Shown here: positions 9,107-53,201 of the stretch, piece after piece
How positions within the stretch are numbered: the stretch's first letter is position 1
How the letters are laid out: every line of letters starts with the position of its first letter
Origin: Mytilus trossulus
Taxonomy: Eukaryota
NCBI RefSeq assembly: GCF_036588685.1
Contig: NC_086378.1
Location: forward strand, 66,278,001 to 66,342,000
Direction: 5' to 3'
Length of the DNA: 64,000 nt
The notes under the pieces: generated by a model
Told to the model about the DNA's origin: nothing
What the model saw: the letters and a program-made list of their open reading frames with translations, nothing else
The model's database searches: none
Position numbers and translations under genes: made by a program

Positions 9107-9171
9107 TTTATGTACAACTTTAGAGTAACGAGTAGGTTTGGAGTAAATACATATTCTAGATACGATCAGAG

Positions 9172-11255
9172 ATGATCATGTTGTTTCACACAATTGTCGT
9201 AAGTTAGATCAATATTTATAACAATACAAAAATTGTATACAGTGTTTGCAATTTGTAGATGCTATCAAAAATGTTCATATTTTCAAAATAATTTAATATA
9301 TATATGCGTGTTTTTAATTCTTTTGCCTTGAGCGTCCCTTTTCTTTAGGTGGTGTTTACTTGTCCTCTAAATACTAACTCATCATATACAAAATGTACTT
9401 AGTTATTCTAACACATCTGTTGACTCTTGCATTTCCAATTTTACTCAATTGTTGGGTCTCTGCCTTCTCTTAAAAACAAAATTTGTCAATATGCCAATCT
9501 TGTGTATTAAGTTGGAACCATGCAATATAACTACAAAGCATAAATTGAAAGTTTTACTTATGTAATGTTAGTTTTGATCATAGATTTTTTACGTAGGTTG
9601 TATTAGTTGTCCTGTATAAATCTGTTGATGCTGAGGTTGCCAATTCTACAAGAATATGTATACCACCAGCACCTGAAGATGACGATTATTTTAAGGACTT
9701 AGAACAGGGAGATGCAGATATAAGGTAAATGTCTTCGTAGTAAAGTCTAGTGGAAGTTGGCTGTTGTTGGTGTAGACACTTTCAAATGAAAATGATGGAC
9801 TGTACAAGATTTTAAAGTGTCCAAAAGCCTCATGTTTTTTTTTATTAATTATATGAATCTATGACAAACCAGATTGATGTGAAAACTTGTTTATGTTACT
9901 TTGTAATATGATAATCGCAATATTTGTAATCATCTTTATCATTATCCTTATAATTATTGTTGAAATTTTTACTTTTATTGTTGAAATTTTATCTTTTATT
10001 GTTGAAATTTTAACTTTCATTATCATCATTAGTGCTAAATTTTTATTATAAAAAACGTGAACTTTGTCTGTAGTGTTTGTGTTCAATTTTTTTTTCCATT
10101 TGTAGAGCTGCAATAAATAGAAGTTTAGATAGGGACACAGCACTTAAGGTCGAAACAGATAGAGCTGTCAATGAGTTAATGTTCGAAGCTAATCCAGTGT
10201 AAGTTTTGATACTCTTATATTGCAGTTAAGTTACTAAGTAAAGAAAAGTTTTAAAAAAGGAACAAATGTAATAAAATTATCCGTTTCAATATACAAAACA
10301 ATACATCTAACGGTTACTGTCAAAGTACCAGTTTGCTAAATTATTTTACAGGATAAAAAAAACCCCATGCAAATTGATGAATAAAATAATTTTTAATGTT
10401 CATGGTACATAGATATTTTTAATCAGGATTCTATTTTTATTTAATTATAACACATTGAAGGAAGGAATATCAATTGTTGATTTTTTTTCAGGTTTGTATC
10501 GACGGTTAGAATGTGTAAATATAAATACCGATCTTATGCCCCTTCCAAAAAAATCTGGTACCAAGGGAAAATGTGTTATGTCTTGCATTACTTCTGGTAT
10601 CAAATCTGGAGACACGTATATTGTCCGTAAGTACATGTATAACTGTTAATGTTGTTAGAACCAAAGATACCCAGTCTCTATCATTACATAACAGGGAGAT
10701 AACTCTGTCAGAATCAGCTTAACGTATTAATCACGTTCTATCCTTAAGGAAATGTTAAAAACTTTTCAATGATTAAAACTAGTGCTTGTCCGAACTTCTC
10801 TATGACATTTTTTTCCAATAAAGTGTGTTGATCAAATTTTTTGAACATTGTATGTTGTTGTAAAAGGGTCAAAGTAAACATTTTGTCAAAATTGATGAAA
10901 TTTAAACGAGCCGAATTAATTTTAGTCTAGGTGTATGGTATCACCTTCATTCTTTCAATAGAGTCCCATAAGGTCTCCAGCTATCTGTTTTCCCGATTTA
11001 TTCGAATTCATTTTAACATGATACTGAGCAATTTTTATGATTACCTTTTTGTTTCATTTCAGAAAGCAACTTTGCAGTAACGTTCCGTGTAATGAATGGT
11101 GGACCCCATACGTGTACCGATGTGTTCCATCTTGTAAGCGTTCCTTTTATATGTGGATAGCTTGTCCAACTGGTCACCATAGTTTCCCGTATAAGTACAT
11201 CAGAATAGAGAAAAGGTTACCACAATGTTGTGAATGTAAAAGATACAAGTGCTGA
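9172..11255 (+). CDS. Secreted Spaetzle-like cystine-knot protein, type A, copy 1 (191 aa; 189 aa from the second ATG at 9178)
   Basis: Exons 9172-9198, 9597-9724, 10106-10198, 10492-10626, 11063-11255; all GT-AG, phases 0,2,2,2. Protein MIMLFHTIVVVLVVLYKSVDA-EVANSTRICIPPAPEDDDYFKDLEQGDADIRAAINRSLDRDTALKVETDRAVNELMFEANPVFVSTVRMCKYKYRSYAPSKKIWYQGKMCYVLHYFWYQIWRHVYCPKQLCSNVPCNEWWTPYVYRCVPSCKRSFYMWIACPTGHHSFPYKYIRIEKRLPQCCECKRYKC*. AATAAA at 11295. Frame is conserved in all three copies. Confidence 0.9.
9955..10020 (+). repeat. 21-bp minisatellite in A1 intron 2
   Basis: TATTGTTGAAATTTTWNCTTT x3. The mirror in A2 (~31200-31285) has about four units. Confidence 0.75.
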
Positions 11256-12924
11256 AGATGTGAGAGCCAAAACCAGTTTTCATGTAAATTAATGAATAAA
11301 TAATTTAAACATGTTAAAATCGTCTTTTAATTTTTGAATACCTTAACAAAAGAAGAAATGCATTGTATCTTAGTCTATTAGTACGAAGAAGAACGTATTA
11401 CTTCCACTGAAACATTATCACAAGTCACTGTATGCATTTTAACAATGCAGCGCAAAAAACCTCACAAAGTATAAAAGGCATACAAATATATACAGAGATG
11501 ATATGGTGGGCCTGTTTCGTTATCTGCTATGATAACAGATAAGTTTAATTCTAGGAGCCACAGTTTTGTCCTCTGTCGCTCAATTGTGACATTAATGAAT
11601 TTGACCTTTGAAGATCAATATTTCGGGTGCCATATGTGGAGAATAATTTTCGAACTCTTCCAGAGCACCAATTGAGATTACCAAAGTTTTTAATGGGGTT
11701 CGTCTTGCTAAGTATTCAGTTTTTTTATGTTGTAATTATATTCTTGCCATGGCTTGGTCATTCTGTTTTCAACTTATGAGTTTAAATGTTCCTTTTTTAT
11801 TTTTTTCTGCTCCTTTTTAAATGTTGCAAACTCTTAATCCATACTCGAACTACCAAAATCAGCAAGCAAAATAAAGATAGTCATACCAATCGTCCCACAC
11901 ATGTGTTACATATTTGCTAATGGGCGTTAATCAACCTAGCATTCCAAGATATGCCAAATTTATCCAAACATTAAACATTTCACTTGTGAAGACTAACAGC
12001 ATTATTAATAACAAAATGATTTACAAAAAACAACTATGGCTGATATGAAATAACGGCAACCATTGACCAACAGGCTCCCTACTTGTACCTGGCACATAAA
12101 AGAATGAATCAGGGTTGGACAGGTTTGTGATCGATTCACCATCCTCTAACCTGGGGCAGTGGTGTTACATCAAAACATAATAAAGAACAAACTATTTAAC
12201 TTAATCTAAGAGGGCTTAAGGTATATTAACGTACGTCCAGTGGCAAATATGTTCAATACACCATTTTTTACATTTGAAAATCACTGTACCAAGTCAGGAA
12301 TAAGACAGTTGTTGTCCATTCGTTTGATGTGTTTTATCGTTTGATTTTGTCATTTGCATTGATTAGGGACTTTCCGTTTTGAATTTTCCTCGGAGTTCAA
12401 TACTTTTGTTATTAGATCGATACAAAGCAGAAAAAACATCACAATAACCAAACCGGACGTGGCATGATATTTATACATACCCAACACAGGCACTTGTCTC
12501 AGAATTTTTTTCCTATATACCTTATTAAATGTGTTATAATAAGGTATATAGGAATTTTTTTTCTGAGACAAGTGCCTGTGATACCCAACAACAAACAAAA
12601 CACAAAGTACAGATCTAAGAGTATATACAGTTACTGACAGCTAGTTCAAAGCCTATAACGACTTATAAAAAAATCTTATAAAAGTATCAATCAGCAAAGT
12701 CCAAACAACCGATAAATTTAGAATAAAGACGTCATTAACATTCAGAGCAAAACACGACCTTATGCAATACCAAATTAAATGGTATCAACAGATTGTAGTA
12801 CCGTTGAGAATACTTTGTATTTGGATTTTTTTATATGTATATTGTAAACGATGAGAAGTTGTTATAAAACTTCCGGCAATTGTGTTGTTCAGAAGCATAT
12901 ATATTCTAAGTACAAGTGCGTTAA

Positions 12925-13531
12925 GGGCATAAGAAACAGTTACAGGGGATATAATGACGTTGCTACCGTAAAATGTTATTTTCGCGACGTCTGGAAAAAG
13001 ATGCATTTTTCGACTGATTTTTATCATTCTAACTGATTTAAATTGGAAACGAGTGCATGGACCCCTATTTTTTAAACGCTAAATTTTGTTTCATTATGCA
13101 AGGAGATTATGTGGACCAAATTTTATAAGACTGTAAATAGTGCAATTTTTAAAATTTTGATGAATCTACAGCAAAAAATTACGTTTTTTTTCTCAATTCA
13201 TGACCATTTGATAAATATGATATTTCTGAACAAAAAATGAATAAATTTTTAGGATACGTCAGATAAAATACAGAAATTACAAATTATTTTACAAAACACA
13301 ATTTGTGTTTATCTTTTAAAACAAAAAAAAGGTTATGTCTTTCTTTCGAAAGGGAAAAAAGATAACAAATCCGAATTGTGAGCAAATATACAAAATTTCG
13401 ACCTCATTTAACTAAAAAAGAAGCACATGAAGGTATATTTTTTATTACATAATTAATTTAATCGAGCAAAAAATAGCTATATTGAAATTGTCATAAAACT
13501 TTAAATACGGGATCAAAACTATAGTATGCCC
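12925..13531. mobile_element. Non-autonomous DNA transposon with TTAA target duplication (Kolobok-like MITE)
   Basis: TTAA|GGGCATA...TATGCCC|TTAA (TSDs 12921-12924 and 13532-13535); no ORF. Confidence 0.65.
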
Positions 13532-13769
13532 TTAATTGATTCCTTCACCAAATTTTTGGGCCGGAAATATATAGGTTGTTGGTGTAAAAAAGTGCAAATA
13601 TTATATAAACAATCTATATATTGAGTTGATTTTCATCCTCAATTTACAGAACTGGTCCAATCCAATAAGTTATGATAATGCTATAAGATATAACTTAATA
13701 ATGTGGAGAACATTCCAGGGACCGAATTTTCGGCGCTCCCTAAACACCATGTGCGAGTGTGGTCTTGAG

Positions 13770-13980
13770 AAACGATGATAGTCCTTCGGAAGGAGACAAT
13801 AAATGGCTTACCCGTGTTGAGAGAGAGCCATATCTCTTTCATGTAATAAAAGACACCCTTGTAAATTTCGAAATAGAGAATACTAATTCCGCTTCAAGGC
13901 AGAACTAGCACCCACAAAGTGGAAAGGGATTGATTAAGTTGCAATAACTTGTTTCATAATCCACTATAAATAAATGTTTT
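13770..13980 (+). mobile_element. SINE fragment resembling the Deu/Nin central domain
   Basis: CCTTCGGAAGGAGACAATAAA..CCCGTGT..TAAAAGACACCC..TTCGAAATAGAG resembles the Deu/Nin-SINE core as I recall it. AT-rich 3' end. Confidence 0.45.
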
Positions 13981-16004
13981 TAAAATAAACTGATAGACTT
14001 CAACTTTATGATGGACATATGAAACACTATATCTCTTCCCTGACTTTGTTTGACATGAGATATAAAAATCTTAAAGTAAACAAATATCAAATTATTCCTA
14101 TCAGTAAAGGTTGAGGAATCATAGACATAATGTTTTCATGTCTATTCGGTTTTGGTGAAATTTAAAAAGTATCAACAAACAGTCATAAAAATACGAATAT
14201 ATGTAGCTGTGTATGATATTCAAACATGAATTCTTATTACAAAATAGGAAATTAAGCATGTCTGTTAAACATTTGAAGACATTAACCTTAACTTTACCAT
14301 GGAGAACAAATAGTGAACTAAATGTTAACAATAGACCTTAACAAAGAAATTCTATTATAAAACACTATCATTCGAATAGTTAAGCAACTAGGGGGTGCCC
14401 CATTTGGAGGTGCAGATGGAGTGTTCCTACATAAATATGGAAAGCTTACAATTGGAAATTTGAAATCATTTTGTTTATGGCATATTATTTTAATTGAATG
14501 GAACAAGAAGTATGACAAGAAAAGAAATAAAATATCAGATTCCTCTTTAATAACAATATTTGAATATAGTTCATGCAAAAGGCGATTTTCTAATATTTGG
14601 AAAAGTTGAATAATTTATCTGAAAATTTAATTGTGTATCATGTAAAAAGTCATCTTGTTTTTCCCCGTATTAAATTTTTATTATCTGCCAAATTAAAAGT
14701 TCTATCTTTTTTGTTTATTATTCTTGCTGATTTGTTTTTCGTCACTGTACTAATATACTTTAAACGACATCTTCCTTTTATGTAACTTGATGTCCACTTT
14801 GAAAAGTACAGATTGTTTCTATTGACCAACAAATGGATTTTTATGATTTCTAAACGCTTGCATGCGTTTTTTTTGGTTTTTTTTTCCCGTATTTCTGTTA
14901 TTTGTACAATATATATATTTTTTTTAAATGTCAAGTGTCATTGACCGCTAAACTTTTTAAAATCAAGGAGACAGACGATTTTCGTTATTTCGCTATACGT
15001 TTTCTTCGAAACTAGTTAAAAAATTAAAGATGAAAACACCCCCGGACCGTCAATTCGTTAAAGAGAATCATGGAGTTATAATGGCCTTATTTCATGTTTA
15101 TTATTTCCACTTTCGATGTAATTTGCCTCAAAACCAAATCTCTGTATCTAAAATTAATACATTAATTTATCAGTGTGAATTTAAGGCTCGATTATTTGAT
15201 TTCCTGTAGGGGCGGGGATGCCAGATCTGGTCTGATAAGAGCTGAGGGTGAGTGACCTTTGCGTAAGACAGGATGAAAATGAACTTATTATCCATATAGA
15301 ATCAAAATTATTAATTGATGACTAGCTCCAAATTACAGAAAATACTAAGGCTTACATATATGCTCGTTTGACAAGAATATAAATAGAGAGAGAGGTTCAA
15401 GGGATGACTCCTAAGTAAGGGAAGCAAGTTAAAAATCGCAAACAGTCTTTTAATTTACGTTGTAAGCAAGTAAAATATAAAAGTATCTTAAAGAAGTTAT
15501 CCGTTGAATCAGCAATCCCTCCCCCTTTTTAAACAGGTAAAATATAGCAAAAAAAAAATATCTTGAGGATGGTAAAAATATATTATCTTATAAACTATTT
15601 CTAAATGTACTAGCTGACATTAACAGAAAAATTCAAAAAAACTTCATGATTGTAAGAAATTAACAATCTGCGACATCACAATATGTTCCCTTATACAAAT
15701 TAAGATATTAATCGACACATCTTTCCTAGCTTCGCATATATGAAATATGTAAAAAGAAAAGTACACCAAGTAGGTTTGGTTTTAAAGAGGCGTGTCTAAA
15801 CGTGTCGAATTCGTCTGTGACGTTTTGCTCTAATGAGATTGTAAAGCCACGTACATGACGTAAAAACACGAGTATATCCGAAGATAAGAGGAGTGAATAT
15901 CAAATAAGACTTATTTCAAAGTATACGCCTCCTCCGCACGTGGTGGAGTTTTCTAACAACATAACTAGAAGTTGCTAGATTCTGATGACTTAAAGTTAAC
16001 AACT

Positions 16005-18799
16005 ATGCATTATATTCTGGTAAGCAATATTTTTCAAGTTACATATGATTTCTATGTTTGTATTCCAAAACAAATAAAGAAACATCGCAAAGATACTGTT
16101 TTTGGCTTTTGAAAATTAAGAAATAATGTGCTTTGTTATTTATTGCGTTCTTTATATAGCTAGATAACTTTGACAACTTGCAGGTTTTTTGTTTCGATTT
16201 TAAGAGTCTTGTGCAATGAAAAAGGGTAACAGGAATTACGGAACCCCAATATACTAATGGACAATACAACATACCACCCTACTTCCCCGACAAAAAAAAA
16301 ACAACCCCCCCTCCCAAAACAACAACAACACGTGGCATTTCAGTTAACACTTCAAGATTAAACAAGAACATTTTTTACAATAAAAAGCATTTTAAGGATC
16401 ACTTTAAAATCGTACAACAAGCAACGCATATTTTAGCGTCTTTTAAAGTGAATATTTGTTTTTGTGTTTTATTAATGTTGACTGCTTTGTTTTAGATTTT
16501 TGTTTGTTTTGCTGAACCTTTTATTTAAGCTGTTGTTAGACAATTTTTAATGAATACTCTTTATTTTTTTTTCAAATTTTTTTTTTACAAAATGTGAAAA
16601 TCTTTTATTTTCTTTACTAGCTTTTAGTGTTGGCGGCTTCATCTTGCTATGCACAAGATGACCAGTGTGACCCAAATGATGGAGATTGTTTTAGAGAGCC
16701 GTTTGCTGGTGTCATGACTGGCGAGGATGACCATTGTCCGTAAGTATTTCACATCAGTTCATATTTTGAAGGGAGAAGGAGGATTTTCAAATTAAATTAT
16801 CTGAATTGCAAATGACAAATAAAAGCAGCTGGATAATAAATACAGAAAACAACTATCGAAAATAGTTGGGCATAAAAGATGAAAAGACAAATTCGTTGTA
16901 GTAATTTGGCTCGTTTGATTGGTGTGGTTTTATGATATTCAGTATACAATATTTACAGAATGCATTTTTTCACTAAACAACAATACGCATGTGATGTATA
17001 AATAACACTTTACTTCGTTAATTATTCCAGGGTTGAAAAAATGCAAGCAACAATAGACAAAGACCCAGAGATAAAGGCTGAAGTCGAGGCTGCGAAACTA
17101 GCGATTGCTCACCTGACAAAACCTCCTGTTTCTCCGTAAGTGAATTTGAAAACTAAATTATATCCAAGTACTGCATGTACATGGCAAAAATCGGCAGGAG
17201 GCGAAGCTCGAGAAGCTGAATATATATTAAATGTTGTAAACAAATACAAATAATGGCTTGGTAGAGAGAATTTAATTCAAGTTCGTATATAAGCTTATCA
17301 ACGTTTGTATTTTTCAATTTCAATTCAATTCAATTTAAAACTTATAATAAATAAAATCAAATACATCGGAAATTTGTAAATCAGTAATATGGTGCCCTTG
17401 ATAGTATGTTTTAAAATATTCCATATATAATAATTTGTATAACGTTGTTTTCTTGTGTATGTTTTGATTTCATATCATCTGTTTAGATGTCGTCTCATTG
17501 GCGTGCACATCACGTCTTCTGGTGCTCATATTATTAAGATATGTTTAGAAATACATTATGAGAGTTCTAAGGAAACAATTCAACACTACTTAAAGTACGT
17601 ATAATGTCTACATCATACATACATGGATTGATAGTTACTTATGTATGTATTTATCGGTGATTTAGTGGGAAAAGGTGAACAACAAACTTAACGGGTGAAA
17701 ATAACCCAGAAATTTTATTTAGTTTTGTGTGCAAATTTCACCAAAATCACAAGTAAAGTATTCACGAAAATGTATAGATTGTTTCGTCCGATTTGTAATT
17801 AAAGTGACTGTCTAAGTTGAACGATGTACAGATAAATAATTACTTCCACTAGTGTCTGTGTATCAGCAGGTAAAAATTACACTAAAATACTTATTTCTTT
17901 TTTAATATAGAGTTGAACTAGGAAGTCCATTGTGTTACAAGAACTATTCAATATTGAAAGTGCCTCCAAAAATATGGATAAAGAAGGGGTATTGTTATTT
18001 CCATTGGTATTATGTGAAAAGCCAAATAACATATGTGAACTGTGGACAGTAAGTTATTTATTTTGTTAATGTTATTCTAATTTTGCTGTTCGTAATTTTA
18101 TTGACATGACACGCACTTCCGTTTTATAGTGTGTTGTTTCCATGCGAATTTATTACAATTTACTGATGCGATAGGAATGATATTGTTATATTTCAAGATC
18201 GGCTGCCAAACACGTGCACAATGAAAATCTGTCAAAAATAATAAAGAAGCATTCGATCCTTATACAAAATTGCAGTTTTGTACTACAAAAATAAAATTAC
18301 GAGTTCAATCTGACTTTTTCCATGCATTAATGTGACGTTGTCTTTGCAAGCATGTGATGCCATGTATGTTGATATTTGTATGTACATGTATAATTTAGTA
18401 ACGTTTCTCAATTCTTAATACGGACTCTTATGAAACATACCATACAGATAATTTTTTAATTGTCGTTTTCAAACAACATAGTCTTTATGCTAGTAAAAAG
18501 AGAAAAAGAAGGGACAGGCATATCAGTTTCCCGGTATATCTCCAAATTAACCATATTATGTTCATCTTTTTTTCAGCAAACAACGCTGCAGCAATTTGCC
18601 ATGTTCTATGCTGTGGTCCCCATCTTTCTGTTATCCTGCCAACTTCTTGTCACTGAAACTATACATGTTTTGTCCACATCTTAAACCGAAATACTGGTAT
18701 CCTTACTACGTCCGCCTTCCTCAGTGTTGTGAATGTAGGAGAACCTATTGTTGGTGGCTGCAAGCGTCACAGAGTCCCAAAGGACCATTTATTCCTTAA
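16005..18799 (+). CDS. Secreted Spaetzle-like cystine-knot protein, type B, copy 1 (199 aa)
   Basis: Exons 16005-16019, 16621-16739, 17031-17135, 17911-18048, 18577-18799; GT-AG, phases 0,2,2,2 as in type A. Protein MHYILLLVLAASSCYA-QDDQCDPNDGDCFREPFAGVMTGEDDHCPVEKMQATIDKDPEIKAEVEAAKLAIAHLTKPPVSPVELGSPLCYKNYSILKVPPKIWIKKGYCYFHWYYVKSQITYVNCGHKQRCSNLPCSMLWSPSFCYPANFLSLKLYMFCPHLKPKYWYPYYVRLPQCCECRRTYCWWLQASQSPKGPFIP*. AATAAA at 18810. Confidence 0.9.
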
Positions 18800-19318
18800 G
18801 AATAGTTGTAATAAAAATGATCGTTTCCTGTAAACGTATTTGTTTATTCTATTAGTCAACTCTTAAGTTATGTGTTGTCTGCAATCATTGGTTTATTCTC
18901 AGTTTTGTTGTTAAGCAACAAAATATTTCATACAGAATTAAAGAAAAGTAAGCGTGGAATCGAGTATCATTTTGCATTGATGCAAATAAAACTACCAATC
19001 AAGGATGTCATCAAAGACAAGAATATGTTTAAAACATTTTTTTTTATATCTTTGTTATTAAATAAGATAGTTAATGCATGAACAGTGGTGACAAATACAC
19101 GTATCCTTCGTAGAATGTATATATTGCACTGGAAATATAAAAATTTACTCGGGTAAATTTTCACCAATATTCCTGCAATATTAACCCCTTTATAATCATA
19201 TACAATAAAAAAGGATCGAAAGTTCGTAATTGCATGTGATCGCTCAAAAAGCCATTATCAATAATATAGTATGTTAGTGCTTATATAATATTTTGGAACA
19301 AAACTATTCTTCACCGAT

Positions 19319-19556
19319 AAATTTCCTGTTTACAAAACTTTGAATTTTTAAAAACTAAGGATTTTCTTATCCCAGGCATAGATTTCCTTAGCCATCTTTG
19401 GCACAACTTTTGATGTTTTGGATCCTCAATGCTCTTCAACTTTGTACTTGTTTGGCTTTATAAATATTTAGATTTGAGCGTCACTTATGAGTCTTATGTA
19501 GACGAAACGCGCGTCTGGCGTACTAAATTATAATCCTGGTACTTTTGATAACTATT
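19319..19556 (+). mobile_element. Penelope-like-element-derived repeat at the left-arm/spacer junction
   Basis: Starts where arm homology stops, contains a minimal hammerhead motif, and ends TAATCCTGGTACTTTTGATAACTATT. Confidence 0.6.
19479..19520 (+). ncRNA. Minimal type-I hammerhead ribozyme motif (core mutated to CUUAUGA)
   Basis: CGTCA-CTTATGA-GTCT tatgt AGAC-GAAA-CGCGCG-TC-TGGCG: stems I and II pair, stem III is palindromic, GUC cleavage triplet. Confidence 0.65.
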
Positions 19557-19984
19557 GAATGCCGTACATTGACCTATAATGGTTTACTTTTTTAAATTGT
19601 TATTTGGATGGAGAGTTGTTTCTATGGCACTCACTCTACATCTTCATATATCTAGATGGCCCGAGAACACAGTTACTAGTATTTCGTAATACATTTCTTT
19701 TAGACAATAAATTCAAATAAATTTAAAGTCGCACCTGCTCTATTTAAAAATGATTTTAACAATGTGGTGTACTATCACTGGGACAAACAATATCAAAATT
19801 ATAGAAACTTCTACCAGCTTTAACCCAAAGTATTGACAATTCTGTGTTTAGGGGGTTTAAATTCAGTTTTACAGCTTCAGACGTAATAAAATTTGACCTT
19901 TTTGAACTGGACAATATCACTACTTAACATGAAGATTCAGCAAACAAATCATGAAAGTAAAGAAGATTACAAGATGCTATAATA

Positions 19985-20395
19985 TAAAAAAGAAGATGTG
20001 GTATGATTGCCAATGAGACAACTATCCACAAAAGACCAAAATGACACAAACATTAACAATTATAGGTCAGCGTACGGCCTTCAACAATGAGCAAAGCCCA
20101 TACCGCATATAGTCAGCTATTAAAAGGCCCCGATAAGACGATGTAAAACAATTCAAACGAGAAAACTAACGGCCTTATTTATGTAAAAAAAATAACGAAA
20201 AACAAATATGTAACACATAAACAAACGCCAACCACTGAATTACGGGCTCCTGACTTGGGACAGGCCTATACATAAATAATGTGGCGGGGTTAAACATGTT
20301 AACGGGATCCCAACCCTCCCCTAACCTGGGACAGTGGTATCACAGTACAACATAAGAACGAACTATAAAAATCAGTTGAAAAAGGCTTAACTCAT
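19985..20395 (+). mobile_element. Interspersed repeat (AAGAAGATGTGGTATGATTGCCAATGAGACAAC family), long copy in spacer
   Basis: Reverse-complement homology to 8378-8644 and 26980-27160, and to variant copies at 19555-19655 and 24500-24790. Confidence 0.75.
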
Positions 20396-22709
20396 AGACC
20401 ATTTGTTGAATCATAAAGACAAAATGCATATATATGAAAGAAATAACAAAACAAAGCAATACTTCAAACACTAAAGATTGAGTAACACGATACCTAACAG
20501 AAACTTGTATTGCTCAAGGTTAAAAAAAGTCTGTTAGAGGTACACTTCTGTCGTCCACAGGTACAAATAAAACAATTTAAATGCAAAAAGAAAAGAAAAC
20601 AGACACTCTTTATAAATAGAGTCATAGGCTTGATATTATTTGTTCATTGATTATTGAGTATTTGGTCCAAAATTTTAAACAGTCAACTCACAAACCAGAA
20701 ACACAATGACAACGACATGACAAAAAAAAGGCCGATGCTAACGAAAAAGGACGAAAAGAACAATAGTTCACACACAGACAAAACATGCAAACTAAACAAT
20801 TAGATACAAGAACTCCTACAAAATCCAGGAGTTGTATAAAGTGCTCGTTTTCAGATCAAGAATGTTTATAACCTTTAAGATGATTTGATAAAAGCAGTTA
20901 GTTGTCATAACGTCTAAGAACCATTGGACTCAAATATTACCTTTTTACAGAAGACTTCTGAAGGAAAAAAACTGCGATGTAAATATTATTGATAAATATT
21001 TAACAAGAGCTTATGCGGCTATGATCTTTAAGGTAGCGAAGCAGCATCGAATGATAGTAAATAGTTGGTGTGTCTCATACCTGGCATCATTTATTTATAC
21101 CAAACGAAAGATGTCTATAGTATCATCTATTTATTGATATAATGTACAAACCAAACCCTTTCATTGTTTATTATGATCTCACGGTTCAACCTCTGTATTC
21201 CTAGTATATAACACCATCCTTATATGTACAATTTCTATCACTCGCAATAGTCAGCGTTTGAACAAAGTTTCATAAGTCTATCTACTACTCAACGCAATCT
21301 ATGATTTTTTATTGACCCTTAAATGACGAAACGGTAAAAATGATAATGTTCTAAATGTGCGTTTGCCCTGTCAGATATTTGATACATTTTTTTATATATA
21401 TTACAAACATGCAAAAATGGATAAATCCTTAGATATTTTATAGCATGAGAGGTATATGATCTTGGTTGATTTGTATTAGAAATACATTTTTGTACGTAGC
21501 TTATTCTGTTCGCAATGAACTACTGTTGTAGCCATGACATTTGACCTATGATAAATTAATCTCGTTTTCACCACAAGATCCAGAACCTACCAGAGAAAGG
21601 GTTTAAAACTGAATATAGCTGAAATACTTGATCAAAAGTTTTCGTATATTTTAAGGTCCTGTTACTTTGACCTTTAATATATTGATCTTTTCAAGAGCAT
21701 CCTTCAGCTAGGTTTGATGAAGTTTGGACATACATGTATTCTCCAAATGATATCACTGGGGAAGCAAATTTTTACATCTTGAAATTACAAAAATTGCTAA
21801 ACATTTAAGTCTTCCAATAGCTGCTGTGACCTTGACCTTATTGACATTAAAAACCCAAAGTTTATCAAGCTATATAAAAGAAATAGGTCAAAAGGATGTA
21901 ATTATTAAGAAAAGCTTAGGGTCAAAATCATTTATAATTCAATTTAACGGCACAAATACCCAAATAAAAAACGATTTAGAGAAACCAATGACGAACCGGG
22001 ATCACAGAGTGAACGATAAGCCGTCCGAATCTAGTTTTTTTTTTAAATCTTTTTTATCTGATGTAATCTTCCTGTAACTAGCAAATTTTATATTTGCCTG
22101 TCAAACGTTTCATTCCTAAATTATTCCGGATAATTGTTATTACAGAAACAATTGTATAACCCAATGAAATCGGTGAAAAATGCTTGTGTTCCAATATATA
22201 AACACTAATATAATGTATTATTAATGTTGACTTTTTGAGAGATTCCATGCAATTACAAACTTTCCTCCTTTTGTATTGTATATGATCACAAAAGGGTTAA
22301 CATTGCATGAATTGCTGAGTATTGGCCCGAGTATTGTTTTATATTTCCAGAGCTGTATATCATGTATTATACGAACTTCAAGGATACATGTATTTGTCAT
22401 CACTATTCATGCAATAACCAATGTATTTATTAATAGCAGAGTTATAAAAAAAGTTTATTAATATTTGATGACATCCTTGATTTGAAACTATATTTGCATC
22501 GCTGCAAAATGATTCGCTATTCCACGCTTAATTATCTTTAATTCTGTATGAAATATGTTGTTGCTATACCATTAAACTAAGAATAAACCGATGATTGTAG
22601 ACAACAAATAACTTACGAGTTGGCTAATCAAACAAACAAACAAATTTTAAGAGACGATCACTTTTATTAGAACTATTCTTTCTTACGGAATAAATGGTCC
22701 TCTGGGACT

Positions 22710-25690
22710 CTACGGTGCTTGCAGCCACCAACAATAGGTTCTCCTACATTCACAACACTGCGGAAGGCGGACGTAGTATGGATACCAGTATTTCGGTTTA
22801 AGATGTGGACAAAACATGTATAGTTTCAGTGACAAGAAGTTGGCAGGATAACAGATAGATGGGGACCACAGCATAGAACATGGCAAATTGCTGCAGCGTT
22901 GTTTGCTAAAAAATAGAATCATGGTAAATTTGTTGATATACCGGGAAACTGATATGTCTGCCCTTTTTTCTCTTTTTACTAGCATAAAGACTATGATGTT
23001 TAAAAATGACAATTAAAAATTATCTGTATCATATGTTTCATATAAGAATCCGTATTAAGAATTGCGAAACGTTACTAAATGATATATGTACATACAAATT
23101 TCAACATACATAGCATCACGTGCTTCCAAAGACAACGTCACAACAATGCATAGAAAAAGTCAGATTTTACTCGTAATTTTATTTTTGTAGTATAAAATTG
23201 CAATTTATATAAGGATCGAATGCTTTTTTTTAATATTTGACAGGATTTCATCATGCACGTGCATGGCAGCCGATCTTGAAATATACCACTACAATTCCTA
23301 TCGCATCAGTAAATTGTAATAAATTCGCATAATACACCACACTATAAAATGAAAGTGCGTGTCATGTCAATAAAATTACGAACAGCAAAATTAGAATAAC
23401 ATTAACAAAATAAATAACTTACTGTCCACAGTTTACATATGGTATTTGGCTTTTCACATAATACCAATGGAAATAACAATACCCCTTCTTTATCCATATT
23501 TTCTGTGGCACTTTCAGTATTGAATATTTCTTGTAACACAATGGAATTCCAAGTTCAACTCTATATTAAAAAAGAAATAAGTATTTAAGTTGATTGTTAA
23601 CCAGCTGATACATAAACACTAGTTGACGTATTTATTTTTTCTGTACATAGCCACTATAATTACAAATCGGACGGAACAATCTATACGTTTTCGTGAATAC
23701 TTTATTAGAATTCTCATAATATCTTTCGAAAAATATAATAATATGAGCATCAGAAGACGTGATGTACACGCCAATGAGAAGACATCAAAACAGATGATTT
23801 GAAATCGAGAACGTTCACAAGAAAACAACGTGATACAAATTATTATATATATATATGGAATATTTCAAAACACACTAAGGACGCCATACTACTGATCTAA
23901 AAATTTCCCATGTATTCGCTTTAATTTTTAATAAATTTTTTAATTGAATTGAATTAAATTTACAAAATACAAACATTGGTGAGCTTATTTACGAACTTGA
24001 ATTTAATTCTCTCTTCCAAGCCATTATTTGTATTTGTTCACAACATTTAATATACATTCAGCTTCTCGAGCCTCGCCTTCTGCCAAATTTTGCCATGTGC
24101 ATGCAGTACTTGGATATAATTTAGTTTTCAAATTTACTTACGGAGAAACAGGAGGTTTTGTCAAATGAGAAATCGCTAATTTCGCAGCCTCGACTTCAGC
24201 CTTTATCTCTGGGTCCTTGTCTAATGTTGCTTGCATTTTTTCAACCCTGCAACAATAATTAACCTATTAAAATGTAATTTAAACATCACATGCGTATTGT
24301 TGTTTAGTGAAAAAAATGCATTCTGTAAATATTGCATACACATTTATTCGTTCATTGTGTAATCATACGTTTTTTGATTGAGTTCAGTCTGCCAATTGAT
24401 ATTTTATCGTGTGTTTTTCTATGTTGTGATGTTATGCTATTGTTTCAGAAAAAGGAAGAAGTTTTGGATCCATTAAAACGTTTAATCCCGTTGCAAATGT
24501 TTGCACCTGTCCTAAGTCAGGAATCTGATGTACAGTAGTTGTCGTTTGTTTATGTAATATATACGTGTTTCTCGTTTCTCGTTTTGTTTATATAGATTAG
24601 ACCGTTGGTTTTCCCGTTTGAATGGTTTTACACTTGTAATTTTGGGACCCTTTATAGCTTGTTGTTCGGTGTGAGCCAAGGTTCCGTGTTGAAGGCCGTA
24701 CTGTAACCTATAATGGTTTACTTTTTAAATTGTTTTATTTGAATGGAGAGTTGTCTCATTGGCACTCACACCACATTTTCCTATATCTATTAATATATTA
24801 AAACCACACCAATCAAACGAACCAAATTACTAAAACGAATTTTTATTTTAATCTTTTATGCCCAACTATTTCCGATAGTTGTTTTCTGTATTTATGATCC
24901 AGCTCATCTGCTTTTATTTGTCAGTTGCAATTGAGATAATTTTATTTCAAAATTCTCTTCCCCCTTTAAATATGAATAGGTTTTCACTAATGTGGAATAC
25001 TTACGGACAATGGTCATCCTCGGCGGTCATGACACCAGCAAACGGCTCTCTAAAACAGTCTCCATCATTTGGATCACACTGATCCTCTTGTGCAAAGCAA
25101 GACGATGCCACCAACACTAAAAGCTAGTAAAGTAAAGAAGATAAAAGATTTTCACATTTTGTAAAAAACAAAAACTTAGAAATAATGTGTATTTATTTAA
25201 AAAATCACTACACACGATAACACATATTTTCAAACAACAGCTTAAATAAAAGATTTTAGCAAAACAACCAAAACAGTCAAACCAAGTAGTTAACATAAAT
25301 AATATATCAAAATAGTTTTATAAAAAGAAAACATTTACTTTCAAAGACGCTTTGTTTGTTGTACGATTTTAAAATTACTTAAACCGCTACGTGTTGAAGT
25401 GTTGTTAGTCTTTGCTCGGATTTTTTTTTCGGAGAAGTAGGGTGTATTATTAGACTATGATATTTTGTACTGTAAAGTAGTCTTTTGAGGTTCCGTTTTT
25501 CTTTTTACCTCATTTTTTTCTATTACACAAGACTCTTAAAATCGAAACGAAAACGTGAAAGTTGTCAAAGTTATCTAGCTTCATAAAGATTGAAAAGCAG
25601 ATTCTTTGCGATGATTCTTTATTTGTTTTGGAAAACACACAAAGAAATCATATTAACTTGAAAAATATTGCTTACCAGAATATAATGCAT
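22710..25690 (-). CDS. Secreted Spaetzle-like cystine-knot protein, type B, copy 2 (190 aa)
   Basis: Exons (transcription order) 25690-25676, 25123-25005, 24246-24142, 23560-23423, 22905-22710. Intact splice sites and all Cys; ends WWLQAP* (CAG>TAG). Confidence 0.88.
24340..24790 (-). mobile_element. Repeat insertion in B2 intron 2
   Basis: Absent at the homologous site in B1 (~16940) and B3 (~45800). Its 3' part is related to the 19985-20395 family. Confidence 0.7.
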
Positions 25691-28600
25691 AGTTGTTAAC
25701 TTGAAGTCATCAGAATCTAGCAACTTCTAGTTATGTTGTTAGAAAGCTCCACCGCGTATGGAGGAGGCGTATTCTTTGTTAAAAAAGTATTTTTGATATT
25801 CACTCAATCTAATTGAAATCGTAATCAGAGATCAATATTTTAATTAGATTGGATATTCACTCCCCTTACGTCGGAAACACTCGTGCTTTTATCTGGCTTT
25901 ACAATATAATTGGAGGAAATGTTTACAGCCGAATTTCGATACGTTTAGACACGCCTCTTTAAAACCAATCTTATACTTGGTGTACTTTTCTTTTTACATA
26001 TTTCATACATGCGAAGCTGTGAAAAATGTGACGCTTGTGTCTATAAATATCTTAATTTTAATAAGGAAACAGATTGTGATGTCGCAGATTGTTAGTTTTG
26101 TGCAATCATCAATTTCTTTTTAATAATTTTTCTGTTTTCGTTAATGTCAGCTAGTACATGTAGAAATAATTTATAAAATAATATTTATTTACCATCCTCA
26201 ATATATTTTTGTTATATTTTACCTGTTTAAAATGGAGGAGGGATTGCAGATATAACGGATAACTTCTTTAAGATACTTTTCTATTTTGCTTAATTTCAAC
26301 GTAAACTAAAAGCCTGTTGCTGATTTACAACTTGCTTCCATTACTTGGGAGTCATCTCTAGAATCTCTCAATCTATATATATATTCTTGTTAAACGAGCA
26401 TATCTGTAAACCTTGGTGTTTTGTTTAATTTTGATCCAGTCATCTATTAATATTTTGGTTTCTATCTGGACCAAAAGTTTCATCTGTTGTTATGCGTGCA
26501 TATTCATTTTCATCCTGTCTTACGCAAAGGAATTTCATACTCAGCTCTTAACAGACCACTCACAGATATTCCATCCCCCCTAGGAAATCAAATAATCGAT
26601 TTTTAATACACTGATAAATTAATGTATCAATTTTAAATACAGTGATTTGGTTGGGAGACAAATAACATCGAAAGTGGAAATAATAAAATATAAATCCATG
26701 ATTCTCTTGAACAAAGGGATTTTAATCTTTAATTTTGTAACCAGTTTCGATGAAAATTTATACCGAAAGAAAAAAAAATAGTCTGTCTCTCTGATTTTTA
26801 AAAGCATAGTCGCCCATGACACCGATACATTAAATAGATATATAATTTTGTGAATTGGAAATATCAAAATATATCTATAACTCTTATGTTGTATATATAT
26901 TTGAAAATTTCGAATGTAAAAAAATGAAAATATAACCGAAGAAATCATATTAACTTAATAAAAACATATGAGCATAAAAAAGGCCGTAAGTTTTCTCGTT
27001 TGAATTGTTTTACATTGTCATTTCGGGGCCTTTCATAGCTGACTATGCGGTATACTCATTGTTGAAGGCCGTATGGTGACATACAGTTGTTTATTTCTGT
27101 GTCATTTTGACCAATTGTGGAAAGTTATCTCATTGACAATCATACCACATCTTCTTTTGTTATATAAGAAATGGCATCGGATATTATCCATTCGAACAAA
27201 ACCGTTCTCTGTTCTATTATAGTTCAAACACAACTTGTTAATGTCAGTGTACTTGTTATGAACATCACCGTGCGTAGTGGCCATACGTTCACTCCACATT
27301 GTGTTTGGTTAATACCTCTCAGTCTGTAAAAGAGGGGCGAAATATTCCAGAGGGACAGTCATACTCATAGATTGAAATAAACTGACAACGTCATGGCTAA
27401 AAATAAAAAGACAAACAGACAAATAATAGTACAGAAGACACAACAGAGAAAAATAAAGAATAAGCAACACGAAACCCACAAAAACTAGGGGTGATCTCAG
27501 GTTACCTGTGCAAAGTTTTGTGCAGATTTAGTTTGTTTTTTTGTTTATTAAATACTGGTCATTTTTTTGGTTCTCTTCGGTTAATGCTATTGTGACAGGC
27601 CTTTAGTATCTTCCTACTTTTTAGAATATTTCTAGAACGCATTATTAAAAGCAAAACGTTTACAAACATATTCTGAACCCCAATTGGTATATAGCAACAA
27701 AAAGAAGAAACTTAGGAAATCGGGATTATAGAAGGGACAGCAATTTCTGCATCACTGATACCCGTTATTTTCTGTTCAAAACACCAAAAATCCCGAACAA
27801 AACGAGATGAGACTTGTCACATTAAACATTTTTTAAATGGATCTTGTTATCTATATATCAAAACATAGTTTTTGTTAGACATACTTGTCTTTCCGCATGG
27901 CAACACTGTCTATATTGTGTTCGTAGGACTCAAAACGTGAAAGGCAAAAAGTAACAATATACCATTGTTAATCGTAAAGAGTTGTGTATTGACGCCTAAA
28001 CATAGTGACAAAGAAGTCTTCGCCAATTGACAAAGTTCAGCTCTAAATCGCTCGGAGTCTAGAAAAGCTTCTGAATGAATCTAGCTTAACAAGTGTTATT
28101 CATCATCAAAACATCAAAATATATGTTAGAGTTCGTGGTGTTTAATGATAAAAAATTAATATGTATACATGATCTCACTTTGTAAAAACTTAATCGATTG
28201 TCTTTAGTTTAACAGAGACCTATACATGCTGTAACATTTCTTTTGTTTCAACTTATGATTCGGTTTGTGTTTTTCCGTATGTAAGATTCCTCACGATAAA
28301 GATTTTTCTATAAGTTGTTATTGCCTTTGAACTAGCTGCCAGTAACTGTGAGTACTCTTAGATCTGTACCTAGTGTTTTATTTCTTGTTGGGTATGTATA
28401 AATATCCTGCCATGTCTGGTTTGGTTATTGTGATGTTTTCTGCTTTGTATCGATTTAATAACAAAAGTATTGAACTCCGAGGAAAACAACAAAACGGAAA
28501 GTTCCTAATCAAATGGCAAAATCAAATGATAAAACACATCAAACAAATGGACAACAACTGTCATATTCCTGACTCGGTACACATGGTACAGTGATTTTAA

Positions 28601-28821
28601 AATGTAGAAAATGGTGTATTGAACATATTTTCAACTAGACGTACGTTAATCAATCTCAAGCCCTCTTAGATTTAGTTTAATAGTTTGTTCTTTATTATGT
28701 TTTGATGCAACACCACTGCCCCAGTTTAGAGGAGGGTGAGGCGATCAAAAACCTGTCCAACCTTGATTCATTCTGGTATGTGCCAGGTACAAGTAGGGAG
28801 CCTGCTTTTCAAGGGTTGTCG

Positions 28822-33590: not shown

Positions 33591-33647
33591 CATTAATTCT
33601 TTGTTTAAATCATATGATAAAATTATTCATCTCAAAAAAGACAAATT

Positions 33648-35034: not shown

Positions 35035-36225
35035 AAAACAGGAGTGCACACCCTGGAATGTCTCGCCTTCTTTTCTTTTCCTTGGTATTATGTTGATAGT
35101 CCTAAATATAAAGCTTTATTACAACTGTCACATAAACTTAACATTAACCATGAAAACTAAACATTGACCAGTGAACCATGAAAATGAGGTCAGGGTAAGA
35201 TAAACCATGCCAGACAGACATTCTACCATACAACAAATACAGTTGACCTATAGTTTAAGAATAACAGCTCAAAACACAAAAAAAGAACACTGAGCAATGA
35301 ACCGTGAAAACGAGGTCAAGGCCAAATAAAACCAGCGCGACTGATATATAGATCACAAAATATTTCCATACACCAAATATAGTTGCCCTATTGCATACAG
35401 TATTAAAAAAAGACAAAAACTTAAAAACTCATCTTTTACCACTGAGCCATGAAAATGAGGTCAAGGTCATATGACACCTGTCAGTTGGAAATGTAACCTT
35501 ACAGTCCTTCCATACACTGAATATACTAGACCTGTTGCTTATAGTTTTAGTATATGAGATATGGACTTGACCACCAAAACTTAACCTTGTTCATTTATCC
35601 ATGAAATGAGTTCGAGGTCAAGTGAAAACTATACTTAGAAATTGTGGAAACATGTGCCGCCTTTGTCAACATACATAATCATTATTTAATAAAATATCAA
35701 CTTAAATAAAACATGCTTTTTTTTTTTTTATATATTTTCCAAATTTCATCAGGACAGCTAGAAGCTAAACGTCTAAATACATGAAATGTGACTTAGAGTC
35801 CATCCTTTTCATTATAATAAATTAAAAAAATCAATGTCATTTGGACTTTCATGTAGGAAAGTTGTATCATTGTCAATGAAAGCAATAATTGATTTTTGAG
35901 TCGACCCTGCATATTTTACATGTCGTAGTCGTTCTCAACTGTAGGTGCCGACAGTTGTTGAAAAGGTCTTATAAGAGAGAATTTAACCTTACAAAAAATC
36001 TGAACCTTTCTTTTCAAGTAGTCACTGAACCATGAAAATGAGATCAAGGACATTGGGTATTTGACTAACGGAAAGTTCGTTACATGAGGCATCTATATAC
36101 AAAGTATGTAGCATCCAGGTCTTCCACCTTCTAAAATATAAAGCTTTGAAGAAGCTAGCTAACGCCGCCGCTGGATCCCTATCCCTAGCTCGAGCTTTGC
36201 GACAAAAGTCACAGACTAGACAAAA
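35035..36225 (+). mobile_element. Non-autonomous Helentron/HINE-like element with CCATGAAAATGAGGTCAAG subrepeats, interrupted at ~35630-35970
   Basis: Internal subrepeats and a terminal imperfect hairpin TGCGAC-AAAA-GTCACA before an A-run. Mirror of 5826-6640. Confidence 0.5.
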
Positions 36226-36654
36226 AAATCATGATTCAAATGTTTTAATTCTGCAAAAAGTGGGTCATCTGGCACAAACGCAACCTCAGCAAAAAACAGC
36301 TATATCGCTACCACAATTATAGTTCGCTAGAAAACTGTTTGGAACAAAATCCCCACTTCAGTGTGAACTAGGGTGCCTCCTTTTAACCACCTCATTGATT
36401 AAACTTGTTGAACATCATCTCTTAAATTTAGATTAGACTTTATGTGATAAATAAATCTTGTCACTATCGATTTTTCTAAATATCAGCATGAACTTTTGAC
36501 GTCATTGTCGATTTTTGTGAAAACTGCTCCTTTAAAATTAGGTATTGACACTATCACAATAAGGTGGTTAATCAAACCATGTTTTATATATGTTTTGGAT
36601 TATAGCTCTTCATCTTTTATATAAGTTTTGGATTTCAAATATTTTGGCAACGAG

Positions 36655-50821: not shown

Positions 50822-53201
50822 TCAGCACTTGTATCTCTTACATTCACAACATTGTGGTAACCTTTTCTCTATTCTGATGTACTTATACGGGAAACTATGG
50901 TGACCAGTGGGACAAGCTATCCACATATAGAAGGAACGCTTACAAGACGGAACACATCTGTACACGTATGGGGTCCATTGATTACACGGAACGTGACTGC
51001 AAAGTTGCTTACTGAAATGAAACAAAAAAGTAATCATAAAAATTGTAATAAGTATCAAACTAAAATAAATTCGACAAAATTGGGGAAACAGATAGCTGGA
51101 GACCTTATGGTACATTATTGAAAGAATGAAGGTGGTACCATACACCTTGACGAAATTTAATCTGGCTCTTTTTCTTTAAATTTTGACAAAATATTTACTT
51201 TGACCTTCTGACAACAACATATAATATTCAAAAAACGTGAACAACACACTGTCACAGAGACGTTTGGACAAGCACTAGTTTTGTTTATTGAAAAGAATTT
51301 AATAGAACGTTATTAGTACATTCAGTTGATTTTGAAAGAGTTATCTCCCTGTTATGTAATGATCGTGACTAGGTAACTTTGGTTCTAAAAACATTAAAAG
51401 TTAAACATGTACTTACGGACAATCCAAGTATTTCCAGATTTGATACCAGAAGTAATGCAAGACATAACACATTTTCCCTTGGTACCAGACTTGTTTGGAA
51501 GGGACGTAAGACAGGTATTTATATTTACACATTCCAACCGTCCATACAAACCTGAAAACAAATCAACAATTGATATCCTTCCTTCAATATGTAAATTAAA
51601 AAGAATTGAATCCTGATTAAAATATCTATGTAGCAATGCATATTTATTCATCAATTTGCATGTTGTTTTTTTTATCCTGTAAAATAATTTAGCAAACTGG
51701 TACTTTGACAGTAACCGTTAGATGTATTGTTTTATATATTGAAACGGATAATTTTATTACATTTATTTAATAGCCAACTTCCACTAGCCTATCTTACAAA
51801 GACATTTACCTTATTTCTTTATCTCCCTGTTCTAAGTCCTTAAAATAATCGTTGTCTTCGGGTATACATATTCTTGTAGGATCGGCAACTTCAGCATCAA
51901 CAATATGACAGTTCTTGTCTATTCGTTTTTGATGCGTTTTGTTATTTGATTTTGCCATGTGATTATCGATTTTCCTCTGAGTTCAGTATTTTTGTGATTT
52001 TACTTTTTATTCACTTTTTTTAAATCTTTTCTTTGCTTGGTAACTTAACTGCAATACAACAGTATCAAAACTTACACTGGATTAGCTTCAAACATTAACT
52101 CATTGACAGCTCTATCTGTTTCTACCTTAAGCGTTGTTTCCCTATCTAAACTTCTATTTATTTCAGCTCTACAAATACAAAATAAAAATTTAAACGCAAA
52201 CACTACAGACAAAAATCACGTTTTTGATAATAAAAATGTAGCACTAATGATGACAATGAAAGTTAAAATATAAACATTAAAAGATAAAATTTCAGCAGTA
52301 AGTATAAGGTTAACGATAAAGATATTCTTCAACCTTTATGATAATTATATATCAAAGTAACATAAATTCGTTTTCACATCAATCTGGTTTGTCATAGATT
52401 CATATAGTTAATCCGAAAAAAATATGAGGCTTTTTGGTTGCATTAAAATCTTGTGCAGTCCATTATATTCATTTGAAAGTGTCTCCACCAAATTTAATAG
52501 CCAACTTCCACTAGCCTATCTTACAAAGACATTTACCTTATTTCTTTATCTCCCTGTTCTAAGTCCTTAAAATAATCGTCGTCTTCGGGTATTGGTGGTG
52601 TACATATTCTTGTAGGATCGGCAACCTCAGCATCAACAAATTTATACAGCAAAACTAACACAACCTTCGTATACGTAAACGTTTTATGGTAAAAATAAAA
52701 AAACACAACTAAAACAAACTTCGAACTGTAACAACTTATTAGGTCAAAAACTAACACAACATCAGTAAAACATTTTGATAAAAAACTAACACAACTTGAA
52801 CTACGTACCACTTCTAGTCGAAAAGCAACACACACTTCGTAAGACGTCTTTGAAAAAATATATATACTTGTATATATACATTTTATATTTTAGTTATATT
52901 GCATGGTTCCATCTTATTACACAAGATTGTCATTTTGACAACAAATTTTGCTTTTAAAAGATCGAGTAAAATTGAAAACAAAAAAAAGTTAAAAGATGTG
53001 CTAGAATAACTCAGTTTATACACTTTGTATATAAAGTAAAGTGAAGCGTAAGGCAAAAGAATTTAGAAAAACGAATATTGTTTGAAAACATGAATATTTT
53101 TGATAGTATCATTTATAAAGTGCAAACACTGAATACAGATTTTTTTCGTATTGTTTTACATAAATATTGCTGAAACTTACGAGAATTGTGTGAAACAACA
53201 T
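50822..53201 (-). CDS. Secreted Spaetzle-like cystine-knot protein, type A, copy 3 (188 aa)
   Basis: Exons 53201-53181, 52664-52537, 52168-52076, 51551-51417, 51011-50822. The first ATG is lost (starts MLFHTIL), and exon 5 has an in-frame 3-nt deletion (CNQWTP). Confidence 0.87.
51765..51903 (-). other. Duplicated partial exon 2 (with donor site) inside A3 intron 3
   Basis: Near-copy of ~52492-52639 with an in-frame 9-nt deletion. It abuts a repeat fragment at ~51904-52008. Confidence 0.85.

What the first reader, a model, noticed from the sequence alone, without database searches (positions are those of the whole stretch)
9172..53201. Hidden six-gene cluster of two Spaetzle-like cystine-knot secreted proteins (3 x A+B pair)
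Seen: six spliced genes, each fully open across five exons with identical intron phases (0,2,2,2), a signal peptide, a pro-region and a shared Cys frame C-x19-C-x15-C-x4/5-C-x4-C-x10/8-C-x13-C-x20/17-CC-x-C-x4-C (type A has one more Cys in the x13 gap). Known: the Drosophila Spaetzle C-106 domain, recalled as LCRSIRKLVYPKK...YKQAIQIEEC...FKIPSCCKC, aligns with MCKYKYRSYAPSKK...WYQIWRHVYC...KRLPQCCEC. Spaetzle is the protease-activated Toll ligand of arthropods, and endogenous Toll ligands in molluscs are poorly characterised. Inference: this is an amplified two-gene Spaetzle-fold system with extra disulfides, acting as a cytokine/TLR ligand or as a co-opted secreted effector. The six-frame track shows only fragments of it, and exon 4 of type A appears there in the wrong frame.
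Basis: partly seen in the sequence, partly recalled or inferred. Interest (0 to 1): 0.92.

Follow-up and report, generated by a model that had tools for sequence, protein, structure and literature searches.

The report
Paired Spätzle-like growth-factor genes in mussel
A mussel chromosome carries three copies of a two-gene pair whose spliced RNAs encode proteins predicted to be secreted and to fold like the insect immune signal Spätzle; the two partners likely act together as a signalling dimer, which would supply candidates for natural ligands of mollusc Toll-like receptors.

Summary
In detail: six open five-exon genes (phases 0,2,2,2, all GT-AG) in three A-then-B units, with the stated cysteine frame. 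RNA-type contigs join all four introns of both types, and copies are under purifying selection. They are not hidden: 4 of 6 equal public Mytilus 'uncharacterized' proteins. An AlphaFold model (pLDDT 75) matches only cystine-knot growth factors, and a family profile aligns over the whole knot with mosquito Spätzle-1C (E 0.013). They miss Pfam's Spätzle cut-off, and 5 of 6 lack an Arg site before the knot, so they are Spätzle-like, not shown to be Spätzle. New here: the fetched stretches of this genome hold 37 family last exons, 28 of them in 14 two-type pairs (A/B, C/D, E/F); type E lacks both knot cysteines III and VI; one RNA contig splices A into B. Best reading: co-expressed, likely disulfide-linked A/B dimers acting as paracrine ligands. 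Heterodimer, receptor and tissue are untested; a cationic secreted effector is a serious rival.

The parts
9172..11255 (+). Gene A1, 191 aa; coding exons 9172-9198, 9597-9724, 10106-10198, 10492-10626, 11063-11255
   Evidence: identical to P0048; joints; template-switch adaptor before 9122 marks a 5' end
11284..11289 (+). GT donor 28 nt after the A1 stop (also in A2, not in A3), the likely start of the A-to-B read-through intron
   Evidence: contig joining the equivalent place to B exon 2 in run X2
16005..18799 (+). Gene B1, 199 aa; coding exons 16005-16019, 16621-16739, 17031-17135, 17911-18048, 18577-18799
   Evidence: four joints and a 5' adaptor before 15967
22710..25690 (-). Gene B2, 190 aa; coding exons 25690-25676, 25123-25005, 24246-24142, 23560-23423, 22905-22710
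30011..32064 (-). Gene A2, 191 aa; coding exons 32064-32038, 31639-31512, 31110-31018, 30741-30607, 30203-30011
   Evidence: identical to P0037
44125..46774 (-). Gene B3, 194 aa; coding exons 46774-46760, 46134-46016, 45707-45603, 45017-44880, 44332-44125
   Evidence: identical to P0039; joints, 5' adaptor at 46812 and poly(A) at 44074
50822..53201 (-). Gene A3, 188 aa; coding exons 53201-53181, 52664-52537, 52168-52076, 51551-51417, 51011-50822; starts at the second Met because the first ATG of A1/A2 is CTG here
   Evidence: identical to P0038; joints
51780..51902 (-). Partial extra copy of A exon 2 inside A3 intron 3, without the 5' part and acceptor
5420..36586 (.). Large inverted duplication holding unit 1 (A1,B1) and unit 2 (A2,B2); unit 3 (about 41761-53630) is a direct repeat of unit 2
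   Evidence: self-BLAST

Best explanation
These six spliced mussel genes encode two types of predicted secreted pre-pro-proteins with a predicted Spätzle/neurotrophin-type cystine knot, and types A and B likely assemble into a disulfide-linked A/B dimer that would act as a short-range ligand on a cell-surface receptor, most likely of the leucine-rich-repeat (Toll-like) kind. Shown: gene structure, splicing of both types, presence of both in the same RNA-type runs, purifying selection, cysteine register. Predicted: signal peptide, knot fold. Inferred: the first Cys of the CC-x-C end makes the inter-chain bond as Cys-94 does in mosquito Spz1C; an extra bond ties the two finger tips (A Cys111-Cys162); the acidic, partly helical pro-region (pI 4.1-4.3) stays on the basic knot (pI 9.3-9.4) and masks it, possibly tethered by its own conserved Cys, since a standard cleavage site is missing; the pairs are kept together because the products are partners.
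For: Fold: model pLDDT 74.6, two long beta-hairpins; all 45 listed Foldseek rows are cystine-knot growth-factor entries by title (one identified from recall), top probability 0.99-1.00. Spätzle branch: profile A6 aligns positions 87-183 to Aedes Spz1C (7b1c_D, E 0.013) with Cys I, II, IV and CC-x-C in register (identity of AAEL013433 from PMC9427763); with profile A7 Spz1C is the top hit (E 0.042); Atlas top clusters for B are 88-91% PF16077, score 0.93, 200 shared features; relative P0043 hits PF16077 positions 3-95/96 at E 3.7e-5. Knot bond III-VI: type E lacks both Cys together. Function under constraint: pN/pS 0.39-0.41 (A), 0.16-0.22 (B). Pairing: 28 of 37 family last exons in the fetched stretches lie in 14 two-type pairs: A/B x3 tandem, C/D x3 and E/F x8 head-to-head; A and B records have consecutive accessions on one M. 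galloprovincialis contig and M. edulis has 3 A and 3 B records on one chromosome. A and B joints occur together in X1, X4, X5, X2, X14 (5 of 7 runs laid), and one X2 contig splices A into B. Precedent for linked genes of cystine-knot heterodimers: GPHalpha2/GPHbeta5 locus (PMC4079206, passages).
Against: No Foldseek match reaches E 0.001; best target TM 0.58 (llama NGF), Drosophila Spätzle only rank 36. None of the 4 full-length window proteins scanned hits any Pfam family, and only 3 of 30 aligned rows hit PF16077, all below the cut-off. Sclerostin scores slightly better than Spz1C (E 0.005), though over 40 positions only. Only A1 has an Arg within 12 residues before Cys I, none has RxxR, and the pro-region is predicted helical, whereas Spz1 pro-domains are unstructured and cleaved (PMC9427763). 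Adjacent genes are copied together by any segmental duplication, so repeats of a pair are not independent; the tree does not resolve whether the three pair types share one origin; 9 of 37 members are unpaired; limpet bursicon subunit genes are not linked, so linkage and heterodimers need not go together. Runs X12 and X9 showed A without B. Mollusc TLRs are reported to bind microbial patterns directly (PMC7773633, PMC6043800). No call bears on a receptor.
Confidence: 0.4

Rival explanations
1. Co-opted secreted effector or structural protein (antimicrobial, clotting or mucus/byssus/shell-coat component) built on the Spätzle fold, stored as an acid-masked precursor and acting by mass, not through a receptor.
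For: Knot region is very basic and aromatic (A1: 19 K+R against 3 D+E, 14 Tyr, 6 Trp in 109 aa) beside an acidic pro-region, a layout typical of pro-antimicrobial and adhesive proteins (own knowledge); extra cysteines allow cross-linking; lineage-specific expansion to at least 37 last exons; horseshoe-crab coagulogen is a recalled precedent for such co-option.
Against: Copies are conserved, not hypervariable (pN/pS below 0.45 over whole proteins); no hit to a named mussel foot or antimicrobial protein among database names; paper searches found no such description, but the main foot-gland transcriptome paper was not held.
Confidence: 0.28
2. A and B are independent homodimeric Spätzle-like ligands; they are neighbours only because an old tandem duplicate was later copied as one block.
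For: Spätzle and neurotrophins are normally homodimers (PMC9427763); both types keep the inter-chain Cys position; self-BLAST shows whole-block duplications of 10-14 kb; 9 of 37 members have no partner.
Against: Three different pair types recur on three chromosomes, two with head-to-head layout; type E has lost a knot bond yet sits beside type F in 8 of its 10 copies, which fits dependence on a partner.
Confidence: 0.2
3. Sclerostin/DAN-like ligand traps or co-receptor blockers (BMP or Wnt antagonists) that bind heparan sulfate through the basic surface.
For: Sclerostin is the best sequence hit and ranks 2, 3, 8; the Cys in finger 2 is shared; one M. edulis record is auto-named SOST.
Against: The match covers only the last 40 profile positions; the C-x-G-x-C ring motif of that family (recalled) is absent; 1 of 30 rows hits PF05463, at E 0.017; a pro-region and CC-x-C end are Spätzle-type.
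Confidence: 0.1

Closest known systems
Arthropod Spätzle (PF16077), e.g. Aedes Spz1C (PDB 7B1B/7B1C) and Drosophila Spz (3E07)
   Same: Signal peptide, pro-region, C-terminal knot of about 100 aa, CC-x-C end, Cys I, II, IV, V, VI in register; Spz1C also has a second inter-chain Cys.
   Different: Four to five extra cysteines in the knot region; short (about 65 aa) acidic pro-region predicted helical; no conserved Arg or furin site; below Pfam cut-off; genes in two-type pairs; no receptor data.
Neurotrophins (NGF, NT-3, NT-4; PF00243)
   Same: Best fold matches (ranks 1, 4, 5, 6).
   Different: 12-15% identity, no Pfam NGF hit, no dibasic processing site, odd cysteines that neurotrophins lack.
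Sclerostin / DAN family
   Same: Finger-2 sequence likeness, Cys for a finger-tip bond, basic surface.
   Different: Likeness limited to the last 40 positions; ring motif C-x-G-x-C absent; pro-region present.
Heterodimeric cystine-knot hormones (GPHalpha2/GPHbeta5 thyrostimulin, bursicon)
   Same: Two related subunit genes, linked in the case of thyrostimulin (PMC4079206).
   Different: Other branch of the superfamily; heterodimer and LGR-type receptor not shown here.
Paphia undulata spätzle homologue
   Same: A bivalve Spätzle-like gene, induced by bacteria, link to TLR signalling not shown (as cited in PMC7773633).
   Different: Sequence not seen here; relation to A/B untested.

Membership tests
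Cystine-knot growth-factor superfamily | Two-finger beta-hairpin fold | tested here: met
   Model pLDDT 74.6; 45 of 45 listed Foldseek rows belong to the superfamily, best E 8.3e-3, none at E <= 0.001
Cystine-knot growth-factor superfamily | Six knot cysteines in register, ending C-x-C | tested here: met
   whether Cys132 or Cys137 of A is knot Cys III is open
Cystine-knot growth-factor superfamily | I-IV, II-V, III-VI disulfide connectivity | not testable with these tools
   No model coordinates returned; indirect support from joint loss of III and VI in type E
Spätzle (PF16077) | Score above the Pfam gathering cut-off (27 bits) | tested here: not met
   0 hits for P0048, P0037, P0038, P0039 and for 8 exon pieces of A1/B1; best relative P0043 24.7 bits; 3 of 30 rows hit at all
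Spätzle (PF16077) | Signal peptide + pro-domain + C-terminal knot | tested here: met
   Hydrophobic N-terminus in 6 of 6, N-terminal helix in the model; no dedicated signal-peptide predictor was available
Spätzle (PF16077) | Cys for the central inter-chain bond (first Cys of CC-x-C) | tested here: met
   Present in 6 of 6 and aligned to Spz1C; the bond itself is untested
Spätzle (PF16077) | Trypsin-like or furin cleavage site at the pro/knot junction | tested here: not met
   Arg within 12 residues before Cys I in 1 of 6, RxxR in 0 of 6; definition from PMC9427763
Spätzle (PF16077) | Natively unstructured pro-domain (Spz1) | tested here: inconclusive
   Residues 20-43 low confidence, 51-80 confident helices; prediction only
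Spätzle (PF16077) | Binds and activates a Toll receptor | not testable with these tools
   No data
Neurotrophins (PF00243) | Pfam NGF match and furin-processed pro-domain | tested here: not met
   0 of 30 rows; no RxxR
Sclerostin/DAN | C-x-G-x-C ring motif (recalled) and domain-wide match | tested here: not met
   Motif absent; match limited to profile 143-182
Heterodimeric cystine-knot hormones (mode of action) | Two subunits bind each other | not tested

The most novel reading that the evidence does not exclude
Mussels run a whole code of paired Spätzle-like heterodimers (A/B, C/D, E/F, with E a broken-knot subunit that needs F), released without the insect-type protease cut, and these are endogenous ligands for part of the expanded bivalve Toll-like receptor set: a cytokine-Toll axis outside arthropods built on heterodimers.
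Probability: 0.13. Interest if true: 0.88.

Novelty: new variant of a known kind. Interest (0 to 1): 0.57.

Why it matters
Whether mollusc Toll-like receptors have endogenous protein ligands is open: a 2020 paper notes one mollusc spätzle homologue with no shown link to TLR signalling (PMC7773633). This locus opens a family of at least 37 candidate genes in one mussel genome, all unnamed in the records seen, with defined pairs that can be co-expressed and tested. A knot subunit lacking its III-VI bond and a pro-region without a cleavage site would also be unusual for the superfamily. If the proteins are effectors instead, they would be another co-option of the Spätzle fold.

Full report
Observation. 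The window is 34% G+C animal DNA. I rebuilt one A and one B gene from the sequence and mapped their exons onto the other copies. A copies are 87-94% identical as proteins, B copies 93-95%, A against B 27-31%. The last-exon cysteine pattern is found 6 times in the window and never in 100 shuffles. Each unit reads A then B on one strand; units 1 and 2 form an inverted duplication and unit 3 is a direct repeat of unit 2.

Real genes. Public contigs from runs guessed to be RNA (7 of 21 listed were laid) join A introns 3-4 and B introns 1-4 on the first unit and all eight introns on the third unit. Template-switch adaptors mark 5' ends about 50 nt (A1) and 38 nt (B1, B3) before the start codons, and a poly(A) end lies at 44074. 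The copies are too alike to assign contigs to one copy. pN/pS is 0.39-0.41 among A and 0.16-0.22 among B copies. Four of the six models equal public Mytilus trossulus records named 'uncharacterized protein', and close relatives are on record for M. edulis, M. galloprovincialis, M. californianus and M. coruscus. So the genes are annotated but unnamed, not hidden.

Fold. Pfam names nothing for the window proteins. The language-model atlas places A and B among Spätzle, NGF, Noggin and IL-17 clusters; for B the two best clusters are 91% and 88% PF16077 (one source of evidence). A profile search of 1.84 billion representatives gave only 9 hits, bivalve where named, one from scallop, and a further search added three Mytilus relatives. 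With a 30-row alignment AlphaFold gave pLDDT 74.6, with long hairpins at 94-126 and 144-190 and helices at 49-76. All 45 listed Foldseek rows are cystine-knot growth factors: NT-3 (E 8.3e-3, probability 0.99), sclerostin, NGF (target TM 0.58), PDGF/VEGF, IL-17, noggin, and Drosophila Spätzle at rank 36; none reaches E 0.001. By sequence profile, the only solved structure matched across the whole knot is Aedes Spz1C (E 0.013; top hit with a second profile; identity from PMC9427763); sclerostin scores a little better but over 40 positions. The superfamily is therefore well supported, the Spätzle branch is favoured, and family membership is not met.

Cysteines (A numbering; pairings inferred). 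I = 91, II = 127, IV = 148, V = 184, VI = 186; III is 132 or 137. Cys183 aligns with the Spätzle inter-chain Cys. Cys111 and Cys162 are kept in all 17 rows that cover the first and in all 19 rows for the second and sit mid-finger, so they likely tie the finger tips. A pro-region Cys is kept in at least 90% of rows; in the scallop protein it and the C-terminal Cys are the only ones left over, which suggests a pro-to-tail tether, though types without the tail Cys exist. Type E lacks both a Cys between II and IV and Cys VI, which supports the III-VI bond and marks E as a broken knot. The pro-regions have pI 4.1-4.3 and the knots 9.3-9.4; an Arg precedes Cys I only in A1, and no RxxR is present, unlike the cleaved Spätzles described in PMC9427763. 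The unpaired C9 type does carry RxxR.

Genome context. Searches of the own genome and a profile run over the fetched stretches found 37 last exons: C6 6, C11 6, C14 1, C9 5, C10 15 + 4. This is a lower bound and counts exons, not validated genes; upstream exons of C, D, E, F and G show the same phase-2 layout where examined. By position and strand, 28 of the 37 form 14 two-type pairs: A/B tandem x3, C/D head-to-head x3, E/F head-to-head x8; 9 are unpaired. Block duplication explains the repeats of each pair but not why three clusters each start from two unlike paralogues; the tree cannot tell whether they share one ancestral pair. One contig in run X2 carries A exons 3-5, the stop and 28 nt, spliced to B exons 2-5; A1 and A2 have a GT donor there. 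It is out of frame and lacks the B start, so it shows read-through in cells transcribing A, not a fusion protein; its level is unknown.

Mechanism. I favour a secreted, disulfide-linked A/B dimer held with its acidic pro-regions and acting as a local ligand, most likely on an LRR-type receptor (0.40). Rivals: cationic effector or structural protein (0.28), independent homodimeric ligands (0.20), BMP/Wnt antagonist (0.10). Dimer partner, receptor, tissue and processing were not tested; the complex predictor was not available.

Literature. Passages only were read of PMC7773633, PMC11087794, PMC12817120, PMC9427763, PMC5484132, PMC6043800 and PMC4079206; other papers were seen as search listings. 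The Paphia spätzle paper is known only through its citation; DeMartini et al. 2017 was not held and is a recalled lead. No supplements were seen. Nine searches listed no description of this family. The atlas shows a mainly molluscan cluster of 123 proteins with 25% PF16077, so Spätzle-like molluscan proteins as such are already in databases.

Verdict. A real, conserved, expressed cluster; a new variant of the Spätzle-like cystine-knot kind, notable for its paired genes, extra bonds and missing cleavage site. Interest 0.57.

Noticed in passing
window 1-5186 and 36947-41328: Arrays of an about 54-bp satellite, 48% G+C, in opposite orientation, flanking the inverted duplication; its long ORFs are repeat translations.
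   Followed up: partly
window 57288-63965: 3339-bp tandem duplication at 99.85% identity, each copy with a minus-strand exon of somatomedin-B type (57563-57907, 60903-61247; Pfam E 0.0017, below cut-off); very recent or an assembly artefact. The same exon is fused to an A-B model in M. galloprovincialis P0036, so the neighbour is conserved.
   Followed up: partly
G000:C10:56352461-56446872 and 74532925-74548508 (L048-L059, L087-L092): E/F cluster: 19 last exons; all 10 E-type copies lack the last knot Cys; F hits PF16077 at E 0.016.
   Followed up: partly
G000:C11:24980348-25042214 (L014-L023): Three head-to-head C/D pairs of the same family and exon layout.
   Followed up: partly
G000:C9:33252297 and 37945192-37988264 (L060-L071, L080-L086): Five unpaired family members; their database relatives have a basic pro-region with an RxxR site and are the closest to Pfam Spaetzle (P0043, 24.7 bits): the best candidates for conventional cleaved ligands.
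   Followed up: partly
window 9100-9105 and 15937-15942: CACGTG E-box about 70 nt before the start codon in A1, A2, A3 and B1; altered at that place in B2 and B3.
   Followed up: no
L028:8917-9366; L029:3861-5369 and 6585-6935: Neighbours outside the window: likely ribosomal protein L13 upstream (an M. edulis model P0009 fuses RP-L13e to A and B exons) and a likely receptor guanylate cyclase downstream (motif recalled, not tested).
   Followed up: no
P0001, P0005, P0036, P0009, P0042: Database gene models that fuse A to B, skip A exon 4, or name an A-type protein SOST; likely annotation errors.
   Followed up: partly
window 33575-34046: Short degenerate tandem repeat giving overlapping low-complexity ORFs on both strands.
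   Followed up: no
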